Made by a program: the position numbers and the translations under genes. Under the pieces are notes generated by a model, which saw only the letters and a list, made by a program, of their open reading frames with translations, was not told the origin of the DNA and ran no database searches. From Escherichia coli (GTDB taxonomy: Bacteria; Pseudomonadota; Gammaproteobacteria; Enterobacterales; Enterobacteriaceae), in NCBI RefSeq assembly GCF_030013205.1, contig NZ_CP122648.1: a stretch of 64,000 nt of DNA. The stretch is one strand, 5' to 3'. Below are positions 9,325 through 58,383 of the stretch, in pieces; the first letter of the stretch is position 1, and the number at the start of each line of letters is the position of its first letter.

Positions 9325-9549
9325 TTACTGACGGTAGGCTTGTTTAATTTGCTTAACCGTTTTGGAAAATACTGCAGCCTGGGTTTCGTCTTCGATCAGC
9401 GCAAGCTGTTTTTCCATCTTTAACATCACGCGGCCCGCGTCAGCTTGTCCCATCGCCTGCAGCATCAGCGTCAGCATCGCTTTCAGGCAGGAGACTTCAT
9501 TTGCCAGTTCTTGATTATTCTCGGCAGTAGAAAAATCAGGCGTACTCAT
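9325..9549 (-). CDS. yecF: small protein YecF (DUF2594), 74 aa
   Basis: [74 protein letters not shown]. Confidence 0.85.
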
Positions 9550-10007
9550 TTATTTTCCTCGTCATGTTGCAATGAAAATTTGCGGTGAAAAATGTTAAGG
9601 CGGCGGAGTATACCATAAGCTTTGCTAAAAATAGCAGTGGTTGTTTTTTGAGCGTGATATCGGCAGTGCTATAAAATACGTTAATATAATGACCAATAAA
9701 TATTTTTATCATGAATGTTTTTTGCCCGTATTGTTCGGGTTAATTAATGTTACATATTCAGCGGGCTGATTTTCATTTTTGCTGAATAAAGTCAATTTTT
9801 GTCACATTTCATCGTAGGGCTTACTGTGAAACGATCCCGGAAGCCGTTGGTGACGGGCGTGACCATAACTGTGGACAATCGAATTTACAAAAACGAGAGA
9901 AAAATCGAATACCCACCATTTTTAACGTTTCAAAGTTGCAATAAAAACCGCTAATATACGAATGACTAACTATCAGTAGCGTTATCCCTATTTCTGGAGA
10001 TATTCCT

Positions 10008-10664
10008 TTGATCAACGTTCTACTTGTTGATGACCACGAACTGGTGCGCGCAGGGATACGACGCATTCTGGAAGATATAAAGGGTATAAAAGTCGTCGGT
10101 GAGGCATCGTGCGGTGAAGACGCCGTTAAGTGGTGCCGGGCAAATGCCGTTGACGTGGTGCTAATGGACATGAGTATGCCGGGCATTGGCGGTCTTGAGG
10201 CGACGCGTAAAATCGCGCGTTCCACAGCTGATGTCAAAATCATCATGCTTACCGTCCATACAGAAAACCCTTTACCAGCGAAAGTCATGCAGGCCGGTGC
10301 TGCGGGCTACCTCAGCAAAGGCGCGGCTCCGCAGGAAGTCGTGAGTGCGATCCGTTCTGTCTATTCAGGGCAGCGTTACATTGCTTCTGACATCGCTCAA
10401 CAAATGGCGTTAAGCCAGATCGAACCAGAAAAAACAGAAAGCCCATTTGCCAGTTTGTCTGAACGTGAATTGCAGATTATGCTGATGATCACCAAGGGCC
10501 AGAAGGTCAATGAGATCTCAGAACAGCTCAATCTCAGTCCGAAAACGGTGAACAGCTACCGCTATCGTATGTTCAGTAAACTAAACATTCATGGCGATGT
10601 TGAGCTGACTCACCTGGCAATTCGCCATGGTCTGTGTAATGCGGAGACATTATCAAGTCAGTGA
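10008..10664 (+). CDS. uvrY: response regulator UvrY (BarA/UvrY two-component system), 218 aa, TTG start
   Basis: (M)[43 protein letters not shown]... receiver plus LuxR-type HTH. Confidence 0.93.
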
Positions 10665-14462: not shown

Positions 14463-15674
14463 TCACCCCACTTCTGGTAACAAGCCTGCTGCAATCAAAA
14501 ATTGCACGCTAATCACAGCAATACCACAGAGAAACACCACCACCAGCGCCGGACGACCACCTTTCACCCGGTAACCCGCCTGAGGATTGTGCTTTCTGCT
14601 TTGCCAGGTCAACAGCGAAGGGATAATCAATGCCAGTACCGCCAGCGCCACACCGGCGTAACCCAGCGCCATCACAAATCCTCGGGGATAAAACAGTGCA
14701 AACGCCAACGGCGGCAGAAAGGTAATTGCACCAGTTTGCAATCGTCCACCAACGGTATTTGAACGCTGAAACAAATCTGCCAGATAATCAAATAAACCTA
14801 ACGCAACGCCGAGAAATGACGTGGCGAGGGCTAAATCAGCAAATAAATGCACCGCCAGCTCAACATGCGGAGAGGCCACCATTTCGCGTAATGCCTGTAA
14901 CAGCCCGTTTAATCCGGCATGATTAGCCAGCAATCCCATAAAGGTTGTTGAATCAATGCTGCCAAGCGTCGCCACCTGCCAGAAAATATATGCCACCAGG
15001 GGGATCGCACTACCGATTATAAACACCCAGCGTAGCTTACGAATGTTGCCATCCATATAGCTGACAATACTCGGCACGCTACCGTGAAAACCAAACGAGG
15101 TAAAAATCACCGGGATTGCAGACAGAGCCAGCCCCTGTTGCAACGGCAGGGTTAAAAGATTCACTTTGTGAATATGCGGTAGCAGCAATACCAGCATCAC
15201 CACCAGAAAAATAATTTTGGCGCTGAACAGAAAACGGTTAAACAAATCGACCAGCGATGTCCCGACACAAACCACGCCACCGGCAACAAAAGTGAACAAC
15301 AGCACGCCAGCGGTTGCCGACATTGAAATACCTGTCCAGTCGCTGATGCTGGAGGCCAACAATTCACCGGCACCGCTGATGTATGCCGCAGTCAGAGCAT
15401 ACATTAAGAACATCATACTGAAGCCCGTCAGCCACTGACCGTAGCGTCCCAGATAGCGTTTTGCCAGCGTGCCCAGGCCGGTATCTGCCGGGACATGCTG
15501 GTACACCTCCAGCAGTAATAGCGCCGTGTAGCACATCAACGCCCAAAGCCCAATCAACAAGATTAACGTGACGCTAAAACCAACACCTGCAGCAGCCAGC
15601 GGCATTGCCAGCATGCCTGCGCCAATTGTGGTTCCCGCCACGATAAAAACACTTCCCAGAGTTCTGTTTTTCAC
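14463..15674 (-). CDS. tyrP: tyrosine-specific transporter TyrP, 403 aa
   Basis: [60 protein letters not shown]...; polytopic HAAAP-family permease. Confidence 0.93.
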
Positions 15675-15765
15675 GCTTTCTTCTGTCCTGACGATCTTTA
15701 TGAGTGATATCTGCGGCGCAGGTTAAGGCATAACGGCTGCTTCGTCAAACCGGCGTTACATATGG

Positions 15766-15783
15766 TGTAAACATAAATGTACA
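15766..15783. promoter_or_regulatory. putative TyrR box upstream of tyrP
   Basis: TGTAAA-cataaa-TGTACA, close to TyrR consensus TGTAAA-N6-TTTACA, about 100 nt upstream of tyrP start; second weaker half-site-like sequence immediately upstream. Confidence 0.55.
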
Positions 15784-15865
15784 ATAAAATGCGTTCAGTC
15801 CTGCGCTGGCGCAAAGTCTTGGTAAGCGGCAATCGCTACGCTAGCCTTTTTTTTGAGGAGGAACG

Positions 15866-16105
15866 ATGGACTCTATTCACGGTCATGAAGTGTTAAATAT
15901 GATGATTGAATCAGGTGAGCAATATACGCATGCCAGTCTGGAAGCTGCGATTAAAGCGCGTTTTGGTGAACAGGCACGTTTTCACACTTGCTCGGCAGAA
16001 GGGATGACAGCGGGAGAGCTGGTAGCGTTTCTGGCAGCAAAAGGCAAATTTATACCTTCGGAAGAAGGTTTTTCGACCGATCAGAGTAAGATTTGCCGTC
16101 ACTGA
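15866..16105 (+). CDS. yecH: small protein YecH (DUF2492), 79 aa
   Basis: MDSIHGHEVLNMMIESGEQYTHASLEAAIKARFGEQARFHTCSAEGMTAGELVAFLAAKGKFIPSEEGFSTDQSKICRH. Confidence 0.85.
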   Translation: MDSIHGHEVLNMMIESGEQYTHASLEAAIKARFGEQARFHTCSAEGMTAGELVAFLAAKGKFIPSEEGFSTDQSKICRH

Positions 16106-16142
16106 TTTGAAACGGCGGCAGTAAACCTGCCGCCGGAGAACA

Positions 16143-16640
16143 TTAGTTTTGTGTGTCGAGGGTAGAGAGTTCTTTGTCGATAAAATACAAACCTTCGCCG
16201 CTTTTGCCTGCCAGGCTTAATTTATCAATAATCGATTTGAACAGTTTCTCTTCTTCATGCTGCTCAGAAACATACCATTGCAGGAAATTAAAAGTTGGGT
16301 AGTCCTGATTGGTCATTGCAGCATGAGCCAGTTCGTTAATTTGCTGGGTGATTAATTGTTCGTGTTTATAGGTTTCCTGGAATAATTCATCAAGTGAGGA
16401 ATATTCAGCAAACGGAGATTCAACGGTATTAATACGCGGTAAATTGCCGGTATCAGTCAGATAATCAAACAGACGCTGCATATGCGTCATCTCTTCCTGG
16501 GCGTGACGGCGCAGGAACGCGGCAGCACCTTCGAAGGTATGATAGCTGCACCAGGCGCTCATTTGCTGATAAAGCAGTGAAGAGTACAGTTCCAGGTTCA
16601 TCTGCTCATTAAGTTTTTCAATCATTTCTGGTTTCAGCAT
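16143..16640 (-). CDS. ftnA: ferritin FtnA, 165 aa
   Basis: [61 protein letters not shown] ferritin ferroxidase residues; ORF-track start trimmed. Confidence 0.93.
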
Positions 16641-16811
16641 GATAGTGCTCCACAAAGGTTATATTTGTTGCTGTGGCGTCACTATAATTTGTTATTTTAT
16701 TATTTGCAAAAGGTAAAATATAAACTTCATTTATTAAAAATACGAATGGGAATAAAACGCATTACCGCTATTTATTTAATCAGCGAAGATCCCCCTCGCT
16801 GATTAAAACAT

Positions 16812-17135
16812 TTAGAGAAAGACAGGGAAGGCGGAATGATGGCACTGATATGACAAAGTGAATTCCGTATTCAAACATAAGGAACCCGCAAAGAGGCTAC
16901 AGTTGCCTACTGGCTGACCAAAGGGGATAGCGTGGGTATAGCCTTCCTGCTGGCATGCGCGATCGGCGATCCCGCGACTGACATAACGATCGGTACGGGC
17001 ATGCTGCAAAAAAGCCTGATCATAAACCAACCGAACAATACCTGTTGCCGCGTCAACTTCGCCCACATGAGCCTGGCGAGTAACTGTGCACCCCGCCAGC
17101 GTTATTAATGAAAGAGTCAGAATCAGAAGTCTCAT
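16812..17135 (-). CDS. yecR: lipoprotein YecR, 107 aa
   Basis: MRLLILTLSLITLAGC lipobox signal then mature domain. Confidence 0.85.
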   Translation of the reverse strand: MRLLILTLSLITLAGCTVTRQAHVGEVDAATGIVRLVYDQAFLQHARTDRYVSRGIADRACQQEGYTHAIPFGQPVGNCSLFAGSLCLNTEFTLSYQCHHSAFPVFL

Positions 17136-17298
17136 GGTCCAGCCAGAAGAGTAAAAGAAAGCAGTATTTTACGCGTTACAGCGCTGCGACAATGGCCGGA
17201 AAAGACGCCTGGCAGGCGCTATTTCTCGCCATCTGTATGTGTCAGAAAGGGGGGGCTGCTTTTTGATTATCATTTTTATAACATTAAAGGGGTATTTA

Positions 17299-17314
17299 TG
17301 TGATTTGCATCACA
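17299..17314. promoter_or_regulatory. CRP binding site upstream of azuC
   Basis: TGTGA-tttgca-TCACA, perfect CRP half-sites with 6-nt spacer, about 85 nt upstream of azuC ATG. Confidence 0.6.
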
Positions 17315-17396
17315 TAAAGATTGATTTTTGTGATGGTTGTCATATTATAAGCGCAAAGACAATAACACCTGTATAACAAATGGTCGGAGTGCCGCG

Positions 17397-17483
17397 ATGA
17401 AACTGCGCAAAATCCTGAAAAGTATGTTCAACAACTATTGCAAAACGTTCAAAGACGTACCACCAGGCAATATGTTCCGATAA
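17397..17483 (+). CDS. azuC: small membrane-associated protein AzuC, 28 aa (absent from supplied ORF track)
   Basis: atgaaactgcgcaaaatcctgaaaagtatgttcaacaactattgcaaaacgttcaaagacgtaccaccaggcaatatgttccgataa = MKLRKILKSMFNNYCKTFKDVPPGNMFR, followed directly by a terminator. Confidence 0.75.
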   Translation: MKLRKILKSMFNNYCKTFKDVPPGNMFR

Positions 17484-17484
17484 C

Positions 17485-17512
17485 AAAAAACCTGCTCCGG
17501 CAGGTTTTTTTG
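17485..17512 (+). terminator. rho-independent terminator after azuC
   Basis: aaaaaacctgc-tccgg-caggttttttt. Confidence 0.75.
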
Positions 17513-17597
17513 TGTCCTGGTGACGGTGGATGTGACTATCGCTGAAGATGTGAAGCCGCTACTATAACGGCTTTCAAAATGCTATCAGGAGTTTACG

Positions 17598-17849
17598 ATG
17601 TCCCAGCCGCTGAATGCCGATCAGGAACTGGTTTCTGATGTGGTTGCTTGCCAGTTGGTTATCAAACAAATTCTGGATGTTCTCGATGTAATCGCGCCCG
17701 TTGAAGTTCGTGAAAAAATGTCCAGCCAGCTGAAGAATATCGACTTTACTAACCATCCCGCCGCCGCAGACCCGGTCACCATGCGGGCAATCCAAAAAGC
17801 CATCGCGCTGATTGAACTCAAGTTTACCCCACAGGGCGAATCCCATTAA
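17598..17849 (+). CDS. yecJ: small protein YecJ (DUF2766), 83 aa
   Basis: [83 protein letters not shown]. Confidence 0.85.
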
Positions 17850-17928
17850 AAAAACCGCGGCTTCAAAAAGATGAGGCAGCGGTTTCTCAAAAACTTCATC
17901 GGCGCAATGCATTAGCGCCGATGTATGA

Positions 17929-18432
17929 TCAATGCAGCTGATGCGACACGACATTCAGAACATGTTGGTCGGTCTGCACAGGGCACATACCCGCAAGTTT
18001 CGCACTGCGCACTTCATCAAGAATGGTTTGCAGCAACAGGCCATCATGCTGCTGTTCTTTTTCCAGATCGCGCAGGAAATTGACGGTTGAATCATCATTC
18101 AGTTCTTTCGCTTCATCGGCTAACTGCGCCAGCGTGCTTGAACGTTGCTCGTATTCTTCCATCGTTTTTTGGAACAGTTCTTCCAGAGAGTTCAGTTTTT
18201 CACCGGGAACATCAATGGCTTTAACGATGGGGGTAGCGCCGACACTCTTCATAAAGTTAAACATGCGCATCATTTGGGTCACGTTACTCTGTGCCTGGGC
18301 GCGAAGGAAAGTGGCGGTGCCGTTCAGACTCTGTTCAGAACACCAGTTACTCAGGTGAAGGTAGAGATTGGATGCGTAAAACTCGCGGTTCATTTGAGAG
18401 TTGAGTTTGAGAAGCATTCCAGCGGTTGCCAT
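17929..18432 (-). CDS. ftnB: ferritin-like protein FtnB, 167 aa
   Basis: [61 protein letters not shown], paralogous to FtnA. Confidence 0.9.
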
Positions 18433-19228
18433 ACCTAATATCCTTATATCCAGAAGTGGAGAGGTGCAAGATAAATCAAAACACCATAATTACTGTTTGC
18501 AGAATAATTCCTTTCTGCCGGTCCGAAATGTGATCGTGGAGTCAATTCTGACGATGATCTGAAATAAGAATAACGTCTGAGCGGGTATAAGAAAATGCTT
18601 AAATCATCAAGTTTATATATTTTTACATTTCATTGATGAAATCAATGTAACTGCAATGAATTTTAATGATAGTGCTTTTTGTATCTTGTTGATATTAATC
18701 GATGAATTTGAATTCATGATGAAGTGATGATTTTATAAAACGTTTTTTCATTTTTGCGAGATGGCTCTCATTATACGTGTTCTGTTAATTAATGAGCACA
18801 GTGATAATTAATGGCGAAATGAATGACGCGCATTTTCCACATCTTTGAGTTGTGGTTATTACACCATTTCAAAAACTCAACGCCAGGTAATGCGGCCTGT
18901 TGACTGGTTAAAAAGAAGACATCCCGCATGGGTACCAAAGACAACAAGGATTTCCAGGCTAATCTTATGGATTAATCTGCTGTGCACTAGCCAATTTGTC
19001 AGACAAATTGGCTTTTCCTTATGTCTTTTCCCGCTAAATTTATGCACGTTCTCACTGTAATTCTGCGATGTGATATTGCTCTCCTATGGAGAATTAATTT
19101 CTCGCTAAAACTATGTCAACACAGTCACTTATCTTTTAGTTAAAAGGTAATGCTTTGTTTTCCGATTAATTTAACGAATGTCATTCGTTTTTGCCCTACA
19201 CAAAACGACACTAAAGCTGGAGAGAACC

Positions 19229-20218
19229 ATGCACAAATTTACTAAAGCCCTGGCAGCCATTGGTCTGGCAGCCGTTATGTCACAATCCGCTATGGCGGAG
19301 AACCTGAAGCTCGGTTTCCTGGTGAAGCAACCGGAAGAGCCGTGGTTCCAGACCGAATGGAAGTTTGCCGATAAAGCTGGGAAGGATTTAGGGTTTGAAG
19401 TTATTAAGATTGCCGTGCCGGATGGCGAAAAAACATTGAACGCGATCGACAGCCTGGCTGCCAGTGGCGCAAAAGGTTTCGTTATTTGTACTCCGGACCC
19501 GAAACTCGGCTCTGCCATCGTGGCGAAAGCGCGTGGCTACGATATGAAAGTCATTGCCGTGGATGACCAGTTTGTTAACGCCAAAGGCAAGCCAATGGAT
19601 ACCGTTCCGCTGGTGATGATGGCAGCGACCAAAATTGGCGAACGTCAGGGCCAGGAACTGTATAAAGAGATGCAGAAACGTGGCTGGGATGTCAAAGAAA
19701 GCGCGGTGATGGCGATTACCGCCAACGAACTGGATACGGCTCGTCGCCGTACTACGGGGTCTATGGATGCGCTGAAAGCTGCAGGATTCCCGGAAAAACA
19801 AATTTATCAGGTACCTACCAAATCTAACGACATCCCGGGGGCATTTGACGCTGCCAACTCAATGCTGGTTCAACATCCGGAAGTTAAACATTGGCTGATC
19901 GTCGGTATGAACGACAGCACCGTACTTGGCGGCGTACGCGCGACGGAAGGTCAGGGCTTTAAAGCGGCCGATATCATCGGTATCGGTATTAACGGTGTGG
20001 ATGCGGTGAGCGAACTGTCTAAGGCACAGGCAACCGGCTTCTACGGTTCCCTGCTGCCAAGCCCGGACGTACATGGCTATAAATCCAGCGAAATGCTTTA
20101 CAACTGGGTAGCAAAAGACGTTGAACCGCCAAAATTTACCGAAGTTACCGACGTGGTATTGATCACGCGTGACAACTTTAAAGAAGAACTGGAGAAAAAA
20201 GGTTTAGGCGGTAAGTAA
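19229..20218 (+). CDS. araF: L-arabinose-binding periplasmic protein AraF, 329 aa
   Basis: MHKFTKALAAIGLAAVMSQSAMAENLKLGFLVKQPEEPWFQTEWKFADKAGKDLGFEVIKIAV...; ORF-track start trimmed. Confidence 0.94.
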   Translation: MHKFTKALAAIGLAAVMSQSAMAENLKLGFLVKQPEEPWFQTEWKFADKAGKDLGFEVIKIAVPDGEKTLNAIDSLAASGAKGFVICTPDPKLGSAIVAKARGYDMKVIAVDDQFVNAKGKPMDTVPLVMMAATKIGERQGQELYKEMQKRGWDVKESAVMAITANELDTARRRTTGSMDALKAAGFPEKQIYQVPTKSNDIPGAFDAANSMLVQHPEVKHWLIVGMNDSTVLGGVRATEGQGFKAADIIGIGINGVDAVSELSKAQATGFYGSLLPSPDVHGYKSSEMLYNWVAKDVEPPKFTEVTDVVLITRDNFKEELEKKGLGGK

Positions 20219-25604: not shown

Positions 25605-26384
25605 AACCTGTTCCTTATTCTGTGAACTTCAGGTGACATTAAAGCTTTACTCCTAATGGAGAAACGACGCAATCCCAACTCAGTCAAACAGGTAAATATT
25701 AGTCTGATTATTAGTAAAGACAATTAATCAATCACTCTCGGTGATCATATGATTTCAACTGTAATTATAAGAAAATAATGTACTGATTCTCCATATTAAA
25801 CAAGTGGTTAATACATGTAAAACATTTTATTAACATTAAGTTGATTGTTGCCTTTCTTTGTATTTAATTAGTTTGTTGTGCGGTAAATGTCTGTTTAAAA
25901 ATAGCTTATCTGGTATTGCATTAAAGCAATTATTTATGGCAGATGATTATTTACGGTGAGTTATTTTAACTGTGCGCAACATCCCATTTCGATTATTCCT
26001 GTTTCATTTTTGCTTGCTAGAGTCGCGAAAAACTTTTTAACAGATTGAAATACACCCAAAACAAAAGTATGACTTATACATTTATGTTAAGTAATTGAGC
26101 GTTTTGTGTGATCTGTATCACACATTATTGAAAATCGCAGCCCCCCTCCGTTGTATGTGAGTGTAGTGACGAGTAAAGTTGCGTCGATTTAGGAAAAATC
26201 TTAGATAAGTGTAAAGAACCCCTTCTATTTGTGAGGACTTATTAAATCCAAAAAAGGGGCTCTGCCTGTTGCAGCTTATCGCAACTATTCTAATGCTAAT
26301 TATTTTTTACCGGGGCTTCCCGGCGACATCACGGGGTGCGGTGAGACCGCATAAAAATAAAGTTGGTTATTCTGGGTGGGAATA
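25605..26384 (+). promoter_or_regulatory. flhDC upstream regulatory region and long 5' leader (AT-rich), no IS element present
   Basis: 780-bp AT-rich intergenic segment preceding flhD; by established knowledge this region carries the class 1 promoter and multiple regulator and sRNA target sites; individual sites not resolved here. Confidence 0.5.
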
Positions 26385-31802: not shown

Positions 31803-32510
31803 TTGTGCACAGAAAACCCCCAGCTAGGCTGGGGGTTCCGGAAAGCTTTCAGCTTTGAGCCAGTTATTAAAACCCCTTTTGATTTGTTAAAACACCTTGC
31901 GGTCTGGCAACTGCAAGTGTCAAACAAGAAATCAAAAGGGGGTCCCAATGGGGAACGAAAAGAGCTTAGCGCACACCCGATGGAACTGTAAATATCACAT
32001 AGTTTTTGCGCCAAAATACCGAAGACAAGTGTTCTACAGAGAGAAGCGTAGAGCAATAGGCAGTATTTTGAGAAAGCTGTGTGAGTGGAAAAGCGTACGG
32101 ATTCTTGAAGCTGAATGCTGTGCAGATCATATCCATATGCTTGTGGAGATCCCGCCCAAAATGAGCGTATCCGGCTTTATGGGATATCTGAAAGGGAAAA
32201 GCAGTCTGATGCTTTACGAGCAGTTTGGTGATTTGAAATTCAAATACAGGAACAGAGAGTTCTGGTGCAGAGGGTACTACGTCGATACGGTGGGTAAGAA
32301 CACGGCGAAGATACAGGATTACATAAAGCACCAGCTTGAAGAGGATAAAATGGGAGAGCAGTTATCGATTCCCTATCCGGGCAGCCCGTTTACGGGCCGT
32401 AAGTAACGAAGTTGGATGCAAATGTCAGATCGTGTGCGCCTGTTAGGGCGCGGCTGGTAAGAGAGCCTTATAGGCGCATTTGAAAAACCTCCGGCTATGC
32501 CGGAGGATAT
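31803..32510 (+). mobile_element. IS200-like insertion sequence (IS200/IS605 family), about 0.7 kb, boundaries approximate
   Basis: Single tnpA gene flanked by subterminal hairpins (cccccagc-tag-gctggggg at 31817-31835; cctccggc-tat-gccggagg at 32488-32506); extra DNA between the cheW terminator and the tar promoter; no terminal inverted repeats or target duplication seen, as expected for this family. Confidence 0.65.
31948..32406 (+). CDS. tnpA: IS200-type Y1 (HuH) transposase TnpA, 152 aa
   Basis: MGNEKSLAHTRWNCKYHIVFAPKYRRQVFY...CCADHIHMLVEIPPKMSVSGFMGYLKGKSS...RNREFWCRGYYVDTVGKN: HuH motif (HIH) and catalytic Tyr region typical of IS200 TnpA; ORF-track start at 31897 trimmed. Confidence 0.92.
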   Translation: MGNEKSLAHTRWNCKYHIVFAPKYRRQVFYREKRRAIGSILRKLCEWKSVRILEAECCADHIHMLVEIPPKMSVSGFMGYLKGKSSLMLYEQFGDLKFKYRNREFWCRGYYVDTVGKNTAKIQDYIKHQLEEDKMGEQLSIPYPGSPFTGRK

Positions 32511-32543
32511 TTATTTCAGTTTCGCGGCGGGTGGCATCAGCAA

Positions 32544-42321: not shown

Positions 42322-42713
42322 TGAGAACCTTATTAGCAATATTATTGTTTCCGCTGCTGGTGCAAGCCGCCGGGGAGGGGATGTGGCAGGCGAGTAGTGT
42401 GGGCGTTACGCTGAATCACCGTGGTGAGTCGATGTCGTCAGCGCCTCTTTCTACTCGACAACCTGCTGCAGGATTGATGACGCTGGTGGCGTGGCGTTAT
42501 CAGCTTATCGGCCCGACACCTGCAGGACTGCGGGTTCGCTTGTGTTCGCAATCTCGTTGTGTCGAATTAGAAGGGCAAAGTGGAACCACCGTGGCCTTTT
42601 CCGGTATACCGGCGATAGAACCGTTGCGATTTATCTGGGAAGTACCTGGCGGTGGGCGGTTAATTCCGCCGCTAAAGGTACAACGGAATGAAGTGATTGT
42701 GAATTATCGTTAA
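42321..42713 (+). CDS. flhE: flagellar protein FlhE, 130 aa (alternative ATG at 42318)
   Basis: MRTLLAILLFPLLVQAAGEGMWQASSVGVTLNHRGESMSS signal peptide protein; start overlaps flhA stop. Confidence 0.9.
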   Translation: MRTLLAILLFPLLVQAAGEGMWQASSVGVTLNHRGESMSSAPLSTRQPAAGLMTLVAWRYQLIGPTPAGLRVRLCSQSRCVELEGQSGTTVAFSGIPAIEPLRFIWEVPGGGRLIPPLKVQRNEVIVNYR

Positions 42714-42716
42714 TGA

Positions 42717-42751
42717 TAAAAAAGCCGATGTCTGCCATGACATCGGCTTTT
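42717..42751. terminator. bidirectional terminator between convergent flhE and argS
   Basis: aaaagccgatgtc-tgcca-tgacatcggctttt, symmetric hairpin with A and T runs on both sides. Confidence 0.7.
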
Positions 42752-42765
42752 GCCGTATAACGCGA

Positions 42766-44499
42766 TTACATACGCTCTACTGTCTCAATACCCAGCGTAT
42801 CCAGACCCAGTTTCAGCGTCTTCGCCGTCAGTTGTGCCAGTTTCAGACGGCTGTTACGCACTTCTTCGTTTTCTGCGCTGAGGATCGGGCAGTGCTCGTA
42901 GAAGCCAGAGAACAGACCAGCCAGATCGTACAGGTAAGCACACATCACATGCGGCGTGCCTTCACGGGCAACCACGGTGAGGGTTTCTTCAAACTGCAGC
43001 AGGCGAGCTGCCAGTTGCGCTTCACGATCTTCACGGATGATAACCGGAGCTGCAGCCAGTTGCTCTTCGTCAATTTCTGCTTTACGGAACACGGACAATA
43101 CACGCGTGTATGCATACTGCATGTATGGCGCGGTATTACCCTCAAACGCCAGCATGTTGTCCCAGTCGAAGATGTAGTCCGTGGTGCGGTTTTTGGAGAG
43201 ATCCGCATATTTCACCGCACCAATACCAACCGCGTTAGCCAGTTTTTCCAGCTCGTCGGCTGGCATATCCGGGTTCTTTTCTGCCACCAGACGACGTGCA
43301 CGCTCCAGGGCTTCATCCAGCAGATCGGCCAGTTTCACTGTACCACCCGCGCGGGTTTTGAACGGTTTGCCGTCTTTGCCCAGCATCATGCCGAACATGT
43401 GGTGTTCCAGCGGTACGGATTCCGGTACATAGCCTGCTTTACGGACGATAGCCCACGCCTGCATCAGGTGTTGATGCTGACGGGAGTCGATGTAATACAG
43501 CACGCGATCGGCATGCAGTGTTTCATAACGATATTTCGCACAGGCGATATCAGTGGTGGTGTAGAGATAGCCACCATCTTTCTTCTGAATGATCACGCCC
43601 ATCGGTTCGCCTTCCTTGTTTTTGAACTCATCAAGGAATACGACGGTCGCGCCTTCACTTTCTACTGCCAGACCTTTGGCTTTCAGGTCCGCCACGATAC
43701 CCGGCAGCATTGGGTTGTAGAGACTTTCACCCATGACGTCATCGCGGGTCAACGTCACGTTCAGACGATCGTAGGTGATCTGGTTCTGCGTCATGGTGAT
43801 GTCGACCAGTTTGCGCCACATCTCGCGGAAATATTCGTCACCGCTTTGCAGTTTGACTACGTAGTTACGTGCACGCTCGGCAAACTCTTCATCTTCGTCG
43901 TAATGCTTTTTCGCATCGCGGTAGAAACCTTCAAGGTCAGCCAGCTCCATTTCACCGGCGTTTTCTTGCTGCTGCTTTTCCAACCACGCAATCAGCATAC
44001 CGAACTGAGTACCCCAGTCGCCGACGTGGTTCGCGCGAATCACTTTGTGACCGAGGAACTCCAGAGTACGCACTGCCGCGTCACCAATAATGGTAGAGCG
44101 CAGGTGACCGACGTGCATCTCTTTCGCCACGTTCGGAGCGGAGTAGTCAACCACAATGGTCTGTTTTTCTGGCGTAGCAACACCGAGACGATCGGACGCC
44201 AGCGCCTGCTGAACATGATCAGCCAGGAAGGCTGGATCAAGAAAAATGTTGATAAAGCCTGGACCGGCGATCTCAACTTTGCTGGCGATACCGTTAAGAT
44301 CCAGATGAGTCAGCACCTGCTCTGCTAATTGTCGCGGTGCCATACCCAGTTTTTTAGCAACTGCCATCATGCCGTTAGCCTGATAGTCGCCGAACTGAAC
44401 TTTTGCTGACTGACGAACCTGCGGTTCGCAATCCGCAGGCGCGCCTGCCGCAATCATGGCCTGACGGACTTTTTCTGAGAGAAGAGCCTGAATATTCAC
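42766..44499 (-). CDS. argS: arginine--tRNA ligase ArgS, 577 aa
   Basis: [63 protein letters not shown]..., class I HIGH-type motif HVGH. Confidence 0.96.
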
Positions 44500-58178: not shown

Positions 58179-58383
58179 GTTGTCATTCCATTGAAATAGA
58201 TACGAATACACGTAATAGCATAAAAAATTTATTTTTTCAGGAGTCGCAATGTATATTTTTATTACGCATTTCTTCGCTGAATATGTAATATTTAAATATT
58301 TGCTTCCAATATAACCTGTAGAATAAATTATACTGCGCCATTTTTCAGATCATCGGGACGCCTCGCAAGTTTTCTTCATCCTT

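What the first reader, a model, noticed from the sequence alone, without database searches (positions are those of the whole stretch)
17299..17483. CRP-controlled small protein gene azuC missed by the ORF track
A 28-codon ORF with its own terminator and a perfect CRP site upstream sits between yecR and yecJ. It falls below the ORF-track length cutoff, so other small proteins in the AT-rich intergenic regions (for example ftnB-araF and uspC-flhD) would also be invisible to the track.
Basis: partly seen in the sequence, partly recalled or inferred. Interest (0 to 1): 0.3.

Follow-up and report, generated by a model that had tools for sequence, protein, structure and literature searches.

The report
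Known azuC / AzuCR dual-function gene

Summary
Window 17397-17483 (+) encodes MKLRKILKSMFNNYCKTFKDVPPGNMFR. A GGAG Shine-Dalgarno (SD) sequence lies 7 nt upstream and a strong intrinsic terminator follows (17485-17511). A perfect CRP core, TGTGA-N6-TCACA, sits at 17299-17314, between yecR and yecJ.

This is azuC (K-12 b4663). RefSeq annotates it at exactly these coordinates, and the locus matches 5419 of 5426 complete E. coli genomes. It scores 75.9 bits against the NCBIfam AzuC equivalog (cutoff 30).

- The transcript (17355-17513) is the published dual-function AzuCR/IsrB RNA. The AzuC peptide activates GlpD, and the RNA pairs with the cadA and galE mRNAs.
- A second CRP core lies at 17329-17344, overlapping the -10. 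CRP control is repression.
- The perfect palindrome coincides with a published FNR repressor site.

Comparison of 55 orthologues from about 20 Enterobacteriaceae genera supports a real gene. Third codon positions vary in 14 of 16 codons, against 3 and 4 of 16 for first and second positions. The tandem CRP cores keep a fixed 30-bp spacing, and the terminator is conserved.

The suggestion of hidden small proteins in ftnB-araF and uspC-flhD found no support.

Novelty: already known. Interest is low.

The parts
17280..17296 (+). Published NarP repressor motif region of the isrB/azuCR promoter (-75 to -59)
   Evidence: K-12 coordinates 1988060-1988076 from PMC12266141, mapped to the window; the sequence is identical to K-12
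17293..17310 (+). Published PhoP repressor motif, overlapping the left half of the distal CRP core
   Evidence: K-12 1988046-1988063, mapped
17299..17314 (.). Distal CRP core TGTGATTTGCATCACA, a perfect palindromic core centred at -48.5. It coincides with the published FNR motif (window 17298-17317).
   Evidence: 2 perfect cores in 64 kb against 0.07 expected; within one mismatch in 45 of 56 loci, always 30 bp upstream of the proximal site; overlaps the FNR motif.
17321..17326 (+). -35 hexamer TTGATT
   Evidence: Promoter scan; at least 90% conserved across 55 distinct promoter segments
17329..17344 (.). Proximal CRP core TGTGATGGTTGTCATA, centred at -18.5. It covers the promoter spacer and the first two bases of the -10.
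   Evidence: one of only 3 sites in the window within one mismatch of the core. TGTGA-N6-TCATA is exact in 53 of 56 loci while the N6 varies.
17343..17348 (+). -10 hexamer TATTAT, 16-bp spacer from the -35
   Evidence: conserved as TCATATTAT in at least 90% of loci
17355..17513 (+). AzuCR (azuR / IsrB / IS092) transcript, using the RefSeq K-12 boundaries. The literature length of 164 nt would end near 17518.
   Evidence: K-12 ncRNA azuR 1987843-1988001, transferred by a 98% identical alignment; PMC8915982
17386..17389 (+). SD sequence GGAG, 7 nt upstream of the ATG
   Evidence: GGAG present in 54 of 55 orthologous loci. The published FnrS pairing lies near this site (PMC8915982).
17397..17483 (+). 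azuC CDS, 28 aa, MKLRKILKSMFNNYCKTFKDVPPGNMFR
17443..17468 (+). Segment inside the CDS with the best predicted local pairing to the cadA translation-initiation region (-15 to +10). Prediction only.
   Evidence: dG -22.8 kcal/mol, not better than shuffles (-20.1, sd 3.4). Consistent with the published statement that pairing overlaps the CDS and lies near the cadA ribosome-binding site.
17485..17511 (+). Intrinsic terminator: stem 17485-17495 / 17500-17510, loop TCCG, U-tract 17505-17511
   Evidence: dG -16, z -5.5. The stem is conserved and the loop varies in 54 of 55 orthologues.

Best explanation
This is the E. coli azuC/azuR locus. A sigma-70 promoter (-35 at 17321-17326, -10 at 17343-17348) drives a transcript of about 160 nt (17355 to about 17513) that ends at its own intrinsic terminator.

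The transcript has two functions.
- It is an mRNA. The GGAG-led ORF at 17397-17483 is translated into the 28-aa, basic, amphipathic AzuC peptide. Published experiments show that AzuC associates with the membrane, binds aerobic glycerol-3-phosphate dehydrogenase GlpD and raises its activity.
- It is a base-pairing small RNA (AzuR). Sequence inside the coding region pairs with the cadA and galE mRNAs and lowers their expression. Translation and pairing compete with each other.

Transcription is repressed by cAMP-CRP, so the RNA is abundant in glucose and low in glycerol or galactose. I infer that repression is by promoter occlusion. Two CRP cores exactly 30 bp apart bracket the -35, and the proximal one covers the spacer and the start of the -10.

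The distal palindrome and its upstream flank are also reported targets of FNR, PhoP and NarP repression. The FnrS sRNA blocks AzuC translation near the SD sequence.

Shown here: the sequence anatomy, identity with the annotated gene, the coding-type conservation and the conservation of the regulatory elements. Taken from the literature: GlpD binding, cadA/galE pairing, the direction of CRP control, and FnrS, FNR, PhoP and NarP. Inferred: the occlusion mechanism.
For: - Identity: an annotated azuC CDS sits at exactly these coordinates. The locus is found in 5419 of 5426 complete E. coli genomes. K-12 annotates azuC b4663 and azuR b4434. NCBIfam NF033642 (equivalog) scores 75.9 bits against a cutoff of 30. 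The window is 98% identical to K-12, and all 3 differences in the CDS are synonymous.
- Coding constraint: 55 orthologues from about 20 genera were recovered. In the 16 codons the search pattern did not constrain, variable columns number 3, 4 and 14 of 16 for codon positions 1, 2 and 3.
- Regulatory elements: the CRP cores exceed chance. The proximal core is exact in 53 of 56 loci, the distal is within one mismatch in 45 of 56, and the spacing is fixed at 30 bp. The -35 and -10 are at least 90% conserved. The terminator has z = -5.5 and is conserved. GGAG is present in 54 of 55 loci.
- Peptide: the helical hydrophobic moment of residues 1-20 is 0.526, in the top 1.4% of shuffles, and the net charge is +6.
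- Function: PMC8915982 and PMC12266141.
Against: - My own duplex-energy calculation for AzuCR with cadA, galE and FnrS is not better than shuffled controls. The riboregulator role rests entirely on the published compensatory-mutation experiments, which mostly used overexpression.
- No Rfam family covers this RNA.
- The paper places the CDS at +40 to +126, whereas RefSeq coordinates give +43 to +129. The transcription start is therefore uncertain by about 3 nt.
- I could not read any direct CRP-binding data (footprint or ChIP). Hemm et al. 2010 is not held.
- IPOD-HR occupancy changes were reported mainly upstream of the CRP sites.
- Nothing was measured in this particular strain.
Confidence: 0.96

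Rival explanations
1. It is only a small-protein mRNA. The reported sRNA activity would be an overexpression artefact with no physiological role.
For: - The predicted pairing energies are no better than shuffles.
- Third codon positions vary freely across genera, including inside the predicted cadA-pairing segment.
- Complementarity to E. coli cadA falls from a mean of -22.5 kcal/mol in Escherichia to -14.3 in other genera.
Against: - Compensatory mutations in AzuCR and in cadA or galE restore repression.
- cadA-gfp expression is higher in an azuCR deletion strain.
- The RNA co-immunoprecipitates with Hfq and ProQ (all from PMC8915982).
Confidence: 0.08
2. It is only a non-coding sRNA (IsrB/IS092), and the 28-codon ORF is fortuitous.
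For: It was first described as a candidate sRNA gene (PMC8915982).
Against: - The variation pattern by codon position is 3, 4 and 14 variable columns of 16 across 53 distinct sequences.
- The YCKTFKDVPP motif is invariant.
- GGAG is conserved in 54 of 55 loci.
- An SPA-tagged product and ribosome binding have been reported.
Confidence: 0.01
3. The perfect palindrome at 17299-17314 works mainly as an FNR (plus PhoP) operator. Catabolite control would then run only through the proximal site at 17329-17344.
For: - The FNR motif at K-12 1988042-1988058 is the same DNA as the palindrome.
- Mutating it relieved repression (PMC12266141).
- The proximal site is better conserved than the distal one: exact in 53 of 56 loci, against 23 of 56.
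Against: - Both half-sites carry GTGA/TCAC, not the FNR-type TTGA/TCAA, and those bases are at least 90% conserved across genera. That this G discriminates CRP from FNR sites is recalled from established knowledge and was not tested here.
- The fixed 30-bp register with the proximal CRP core suggests the two sites work as a pair.
Confidence: 0.15
4. azuC acts as a leader or upstream cistron for yecJ. Terminator read-through would couple yecJ expression to azuC transcription.
For: yecJ lies on the same strand, 160-220 bp downstream of the azuC ATG, in most genera examined.
Against: - The strong hairpin and 7-U terminator are conserved in 54 of 55 loci.
- K-12 annotates the RNA as ending at the terminator.
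- Linkage is lost in Buttiauxella and loosened in Cedecea and Dryocola.
- No alternative antiterminator structure was seen. The whole-RNA fold has z = -1.35.
Confidence: 0.07

Closest known systems
AzuCR / IsrB / IS092 with azuC (E. coli K-12 b4434 / b4663)
   Same: It is the same gene. The protein is identical, the DNA is 98% identical across the whole yecR-yecJ spacer, and the promoter, CRP cores, SD sequence and terminator are the same.
   Different: There are three synonymous differences in the CDS (RNA positions 78, 90 and 108). Two of them fall in the predicted cadA-pairing segment and weaken it by 1.4 kcal/mol in the model. One base also differs in the N6 spacer of the distal CRP core.
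Spot 42 / SpfP
   Same: It is a CRP-repressed E. coli dual-function RNA that encodes a very small protein and acts in carbon-source choice (PMC8916003 listed; PMC8915982).
   Different: The sequence is unrelated. SpfP is 15 aa and binds CRP itself, whereas AzuC binds GlpD.
SgrS / SgrT
   Same: It is an E. coli dual-function RNA in which both the peptide and the base pairing act on sugar metabolism.
   Different: Its coding and pairing regions are separate, while in AzuCR they overlap and compete. It is regulated by SgrR, not CRP.
VcdRP / VcdP (Vibrio cholerae)
   Same: It is a dual-function RNA with a 29-aa peptide that acts on central carbon metabolism and is linked to CRP (PMC8672173).
   Different: It comes from a different family and organism, and its pairing and coding regions are separate.

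Membership tests
AzuC small protein (NCBIfam NF033642, equivalog) | Score above the curated HMM cutoff | tested here: met
   75.9 bits against a cutoff of 30, E = 1.3e-21, covering profile positions 1-26 of 26
AzuC small protein (NCBIfam NF033642, equivalog) | Same sequence as the reference E. coli protein | tested here: met
   The RefSeq CDS WP_010723106.1 sits at the same coordinates. All 3 nucleotide differences from K-12 are synonymous.
AzuC small protein (NCBIfam NF033642, equivalog) | Syntenic position between yecR and yecJ, on the same strand as yecJ | tested here: met
AzuC small protein (NCBIfam NF033642, equivalog) | Evolves as a coding sequence | tested here: met
   Variable columns number 3, 4 and 14 of 16 by codon position in the codons not constrained by the search pattern
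AzuC small protein (NCBIfam NF033642, equivalog) | Translated product; membrane association; binds and activates GlpD | not testable with these tools
   Published for K-12 (PMC8915982). Here only the amphipathic-helix signature was computed: hydrophobic moment 0.526, top 1.4% of shuffles.
AzuCR / IsrB dual-function sRNA | Discrete transcript of about 160 nt with its own promoter and intrinsic terminator | tested here: met
   Sequence features only. K-12 azuR boundaries map to 17355-17513; promoter; terminator. No expression data exist for this strain.
AzuCR / IsrB dual-function sRNA | Base pairing with cadA and galE mRNAs through sequence inside the CDS | tested here: inconclusive
   The best local duplex with cadA -15 to +10 has dG -22.8 kcal/mol, no better than shuffles. 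Published compensatory mutations support the pairing.
AzuCR / IsrB dual-function sRNA | Hfq/ProQ binding; FnrS repression of translation | not testable with these tools
   From the literature only. The FnrS duplex energy is not distinguishable from shuffles.
AzuCR / IsrB dual-function sRNA | Match to a curated RNA family model | tested here: not met
   No Rfam 15 family reaches its threshold. The only hits are sub-threshold (STnc370 and rsmX, 30 and 24 bits against gathering scores of 54 and 56) and are driven by the terminator hairpin. Rfam appears to have no model for this RNA, so this says nothing against identity.
CRP-regulated promoter | Match to the TGTGA-N6-TCACA core beyond chance | tested here: met
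   The distal core is perfect (0.07 expected per window). A one-mismatch proximal core lies 30 bp away. Both are conserved across genera while their N6 spacers vary.
CRP-regulated promoter | Site position compatible with the observed direction of regulation | tested here: met
   The centres at -48.5 and -18.5 are not class I or class II activator positions. The proximal site overlaps the -10, which is consistent with repression. The occlusion mechanism is inferred.
CRP-regulated promoter | CRP-dependent expression and direct CRP binding | not testable with these tools
   AzuC-SPA is elevated in a crp deletion mutant, as cited in PMC8915982. The primary paper (Hemm 2010) is not held.

The most novel reading that the evidence does not exclude
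The small protein and its tandem-CRP promoter are ancient. They are nearly invariant in at least 20 Enterobacteriaceae genera. In contrast, the nucleotides that pair with cadA are fixed only in Escherichia and a few close relatives.

On this reading the riboregulator (AzuR) function is a recent, lineage-restricted addition to an old small-protein gene. That would be an example of an mRNA acquiring sRNA activity through synonymous-site evolution.
Probability: 0.3. Interest if true: 0.35.

Novelty: already known. Interest (0 to 1): 0.08.

Why it matters
For the scan, this finding works as a positive control. A reader working from sequence alone correctly recognised a 28-codon gene that length-filtered ORF tracks miss.

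It also shows that a simple SD-scored scan of long intergenic regions recovers both known intergenic small proteins in the window. yobI ranks 4th and azuC 7th of 225 candidate starts.

Biologically nothing is new. The gene, its product, its dual RNA function and its CRP, FNR, PhoP, NarP and FnrS regulation are all published.

The only added value is comparative:
- The protein, SD sequence, terminator and the two CRP cores at a fixed 30-bp spacing are conserved across about 20 genera.
- The single 'mismatch' in the proximal CRP core is the first base of the -10 hexamer, which explains why it is fixed.
- The segment predicted to pair with cadA is conserved only at the protein level outside Escherichia.

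Tried and rejected
- Rfam, E-value mode, 15000-20000: no family. Two sub-threshold hits come from the terminator hairpin.
- Consensus terminator scan: it missed the azuC terminator, probably because the A/T-extended stem absorbs the T-tract. It flagged an unrelated hairpin at 17206-17218. Direct folding settled the question.
The other protein-database tools have minimum lengths of 30 aa, so I used one plain-DNA pattern scan of genome contigs instead. Five of its 60 hits were chance matches in unrelated phyla and were discarded.
- Hemm et al. 2010 and the PNAS supplement are not held. The bioRxiv version has no orthologue information.
- Unrestricted RNA duplex folding timed out and then paired the whole molecules meaninglessly. 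A windowed local search replaced it, and its energies are not significant against shuffles.
- The first small-ORF scan used coordinates that were wrong beyond 31804, because the window carries an IS200C element absent from the reference strain. It was redone.
- The 13-aa ORF at 18595-18636 in ftnB-araF was rejected. Its ATG is ATC in E. albertii, E. whittamii and E. coli E69.
- The 6-codon mini-ORF at 17380-17400 overlapping the azuC start was rejected. Its ATG is present in only 2 of 55 orthologous loci.
- The 48-aa TTG-started version of the ORF (17337-17483) was rejected. Its start lies upstream of the transcription start.

Full report
**What is there.**
- ORF: an ATG at 17397 opens a 28-codon frame, MKLRKILKSMFNNYCKTFKDVPPGNMFR, ending with TAA at 17481-17483.
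- SD sequence: GGAG lies at 17386-17389, 7 nt upstream of the ATG.
- Terminator: one base after the stop comes AAAAAACCTGC-TCCG-GCAGGTTTTTTT (17485-17511). It folds at -16 kcal/mol with z = -5.5, and none of 200 shuffles does as well.
- CRP core: TGTGATTTGCATCACA occupies 17299-17314. Only two perfect TGTGA-N6-TCACA cores occur in the 64 kb, against 0.07 expected. The other lies upstream of flhD.
- ORF lister: it reports a 48-aa TTG-started ORF (17337-17483) instead of the real frame. That TTG lies upstream of the transcription start.

**Identity.** The 451-bp spacer matches 5419 of 5426 complete E. coli genomes, and the feature under the match is 'azuC: stress response protein AzuC'.
- The window is near-identical to porcine ETEC strains. 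In ETEC4068 the azuC CDS is annotated at exactly 17397-17483, between yecR and yecJ.
- K-12 MG1655 annotates both azuC (b4663) and the ncRNA azuR (b4434).
- Alignment to K-12 is 98% identical. The three differences inside the CDS are all third-position and synonymous. The azuR boundaries transfer to window 17355-17513.
- The peptide scores 75.9 bits against the NCBIfam equivalog NF033642, whose cutoff is 30. Pfam has no model for it, and Rfam has no model for the RNA.

**What is already known.** Raina et al. 2022 (PMC8915982) describe the 164-nt AzuCR RNA, earlier called IS092 or IsrB.
- AzuC was detected as an SPA-tagged product and by ribosome binding.
- The peptide is amphipathic and membrane-associated. 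It binds GlpD and increases dehydrogenase activity.
- The RNA represses cadA and galE by base pairing, shown with compensatory mutations. The pairing region lies inside the CDS, so translation and pairing compete.
- Transcription is repressed by CRP. The RNA is high only in exponential growth on glucose.
- FnrS represses translation near the ribosome-binding site.

Ekdahl et al. 2025 (PMC12266141) add FNR, NarP and PhoP as transcriptional repressors. PhoP overlaps its left half, and NarP lies at 17280-17296.

**Promoter anatomy.** The scan finds TTGATT (17321-17326), a 16-bp spacer and TATTAT (17343-17348). This places +1 at 17355, the annotated azuR 5' end.
- A second CRP core, TGTGATGGTTGTCATA, lies at 17329-17344. 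It is one of only three sites in the window within one mismatch of the core.
- Relative to +1, the two cores are centred at -48.5 and -18.5. They bracket the -35, and the proximal one covers the spacer and the first two bases of the -10.
- This geometry fits repression by occlusion and not class I or class II activation. That step is my inference.
- The paper's text places the CDS at +40 to +126, while RefSeq coordinates give +43 to +129. The start site is therefore uncertain by about 3 nt.

**Comparative test.** The protein tools refuse 28-aa queries. I therefore scanned the species-representative genome collection once with a back-translated N-terminal pattern.
- Of the 60 hits, 55 are 27-28-aa orthologues. 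They come from Escherichia, Citrobacter, Kosakonia, Klebsiella (K. oxytoca and relatives), Raoultella, Buttiauxella, Leclercia, Cedecea, Siccibacter, Franconibacter, Superficieibacter, Silvania and others. The other 5 are chance hits.
- In codons 12-27, which the pattern did not constrain, 3, 4 and 14 of 16 columns vary at codon positions 1, 2 and 3. YCKTFKDVPP is invariant. This is a clear protein-coding signature.
- The proximal core TGTGA-N6-TCATA is exact in 53 of 56 loci. The distal core is within one mismatch in 45 of 56. The spacing is always 30 bp, the N6 spacers vary freely, and the -35 and -10 are at least 90% conserved.
- The proximal core's single departure from consensus is the T that begins the -10 hexamer, which explains why it is fixed.
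- The GTGA/TCAC bases of the distal core are at least 90% conserved.
- The terminator stem is conserved and its loop varies. GGAG is present in 54 of 55 loci.
- yecJ follows on the same strand in most genera.
- Residues 1-20 have a helical hydrophobic moment of 0.526, in the top 1.4% of shuffles, and the peptide has a net charge of +6.

**RNA-function check.** A local duplex search places the best AzuCR-cadA pairing at window 17443-17468, against cadA -15 to +10. This covers the cadA SD sequence and start codon and agrees with the published description.
- The energy (-22.8 kcal/mol) is not better than shuffles (-20.1, sd 3.4). The same holds for FnrS. My computation therefore adds no independent support.
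- Two of the three synonymous differences from K-12 lie in this segment and weaken the modelled duplex by 1.4 kcal/mol.
- Across genera, complementarity to E. coli cadA averages -22.5 kcal/mol in Escherichia and -14.3 elsewhere.
- The Thr17 codon, whose third base sits in the middle of the 8-bp core helix, is ACG in only 8 of 53 distinct sequences.
- The caveat is that each genus's own cadA was not available. This is the basis of the novel reading and no more than that.

K-12's curated annotation, which includes small proteins found by ribosome profiling, lists four proteins under 60 aa in the region syntenic to the window: azuC, yobI, yecU and yecV. None lies in ftnB-araF or uspC-flhD.
- An SD-scored scan of the 12 intergenic gaps of at least 200 bp ranks yobI 4th and azuC 7th of 225 candidate starts.
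- The best ftnB-araF candidate (18595-18636, 13 aa) has ATC in place of ATG in three other Escherichia species.
- The best uspC-flhD candidate (25639-25601, 12 aa) has an AGGAG 10 nt upstream, and its stop overlaps the uspC ATG. It is identical in K-12, so it remains untested.

**Verdict.** The feature is already known and thoroughly characterised. Interest is low.

Noticed in passing
window 31805-32515: A 711-bp insertion lies between cheW and tar, relative to strain ETEC4068. It is an IS200C element with a tnpA of the IS200/IS605 family. The same insertion, with both junctions, is 100% identical in ETEC4079, so the window probably comes from that strain or a near-identical one. It sits in the cheW-tar spacer and could affect tar-tap-cheRBYZ expression.
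   Followed up: partly
window 26107-26122: The only other perfect CRP core in the window (TGTGATCTGTATCACA) lies about 260 bp upstream of the flhD ATG. I take it to be the known CRP activator site of the flhDC promoter (from memory, not tested). It serves as an internal positive control for the motif search.
   Followed up: no
window 25639-25601 (minus strand): A 12-aa ORF, MSPEVHRIRNRL, has an AGGAG 10 nt upstream, and its TGA overlaps the uspC start codon (ATGA). It ranks 5th of 225 in the SD-scored scan. It is identical in K-12 (1979718-1979756), so no conservation test was possible.
   Followed up: partly
window 58249-58314 (+) and 9536-9712 (-): Two other annotated proteins below a 60-aa cutoff lie in the window: yobI (21 aa, stress response small protein) and yecU (58 aa, overlapping yecF). 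These are the features a length-filtered ORF track would actually miss.
   Followed up: yes
window about 42713-42766 (flhE-argS junction; L001 42002-42055): K-12 carries yecV (14 aa) and yecT in a 785-bp flhE-argS spacer. In this strain the spacer is only about 52 bp, so both genes are absent.
   Followed up: no
window-wide, by synteny with K-12: K-12 annotates several sRNAs in the syntenic region that the PGAP annotation of the ETEC strain omits: MotR, AsflhD, 3'ETS-leuZ, SdsN, FliX and MicL, besides AzuR.
   Followed up: no
loci L006-L065 (for example L019, L052, L053): Outside Escherichia, yecR lies about 2.9 kb upstream of azuC instead of about 0.55 kb. Roughly 2.3 kb of extra DNA sits between them, either lost in Escherichia or gained elsewhere. 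Its content was not examined.
   Followed up: no
L032 (Enterobacter sp. EA-1), azuC at 9983-10087: This azuC is frameshifted at the C-terminus (34 aa...DVPPRALCSDDKKTC) and runs into the terminator. It is either a pseudogene or an assembly error.
   Followed up: no
window 17380-17400: A 6-codon mini-ORF (ATGGTCGGAGTGCCGCGATGA) contains the azuC SD sequence, and its stop overlaps the azuC ATG. Its ATG is present in only 2 of 55 orthologous loci, so it is probably fortuitous.
   Followed up: yes
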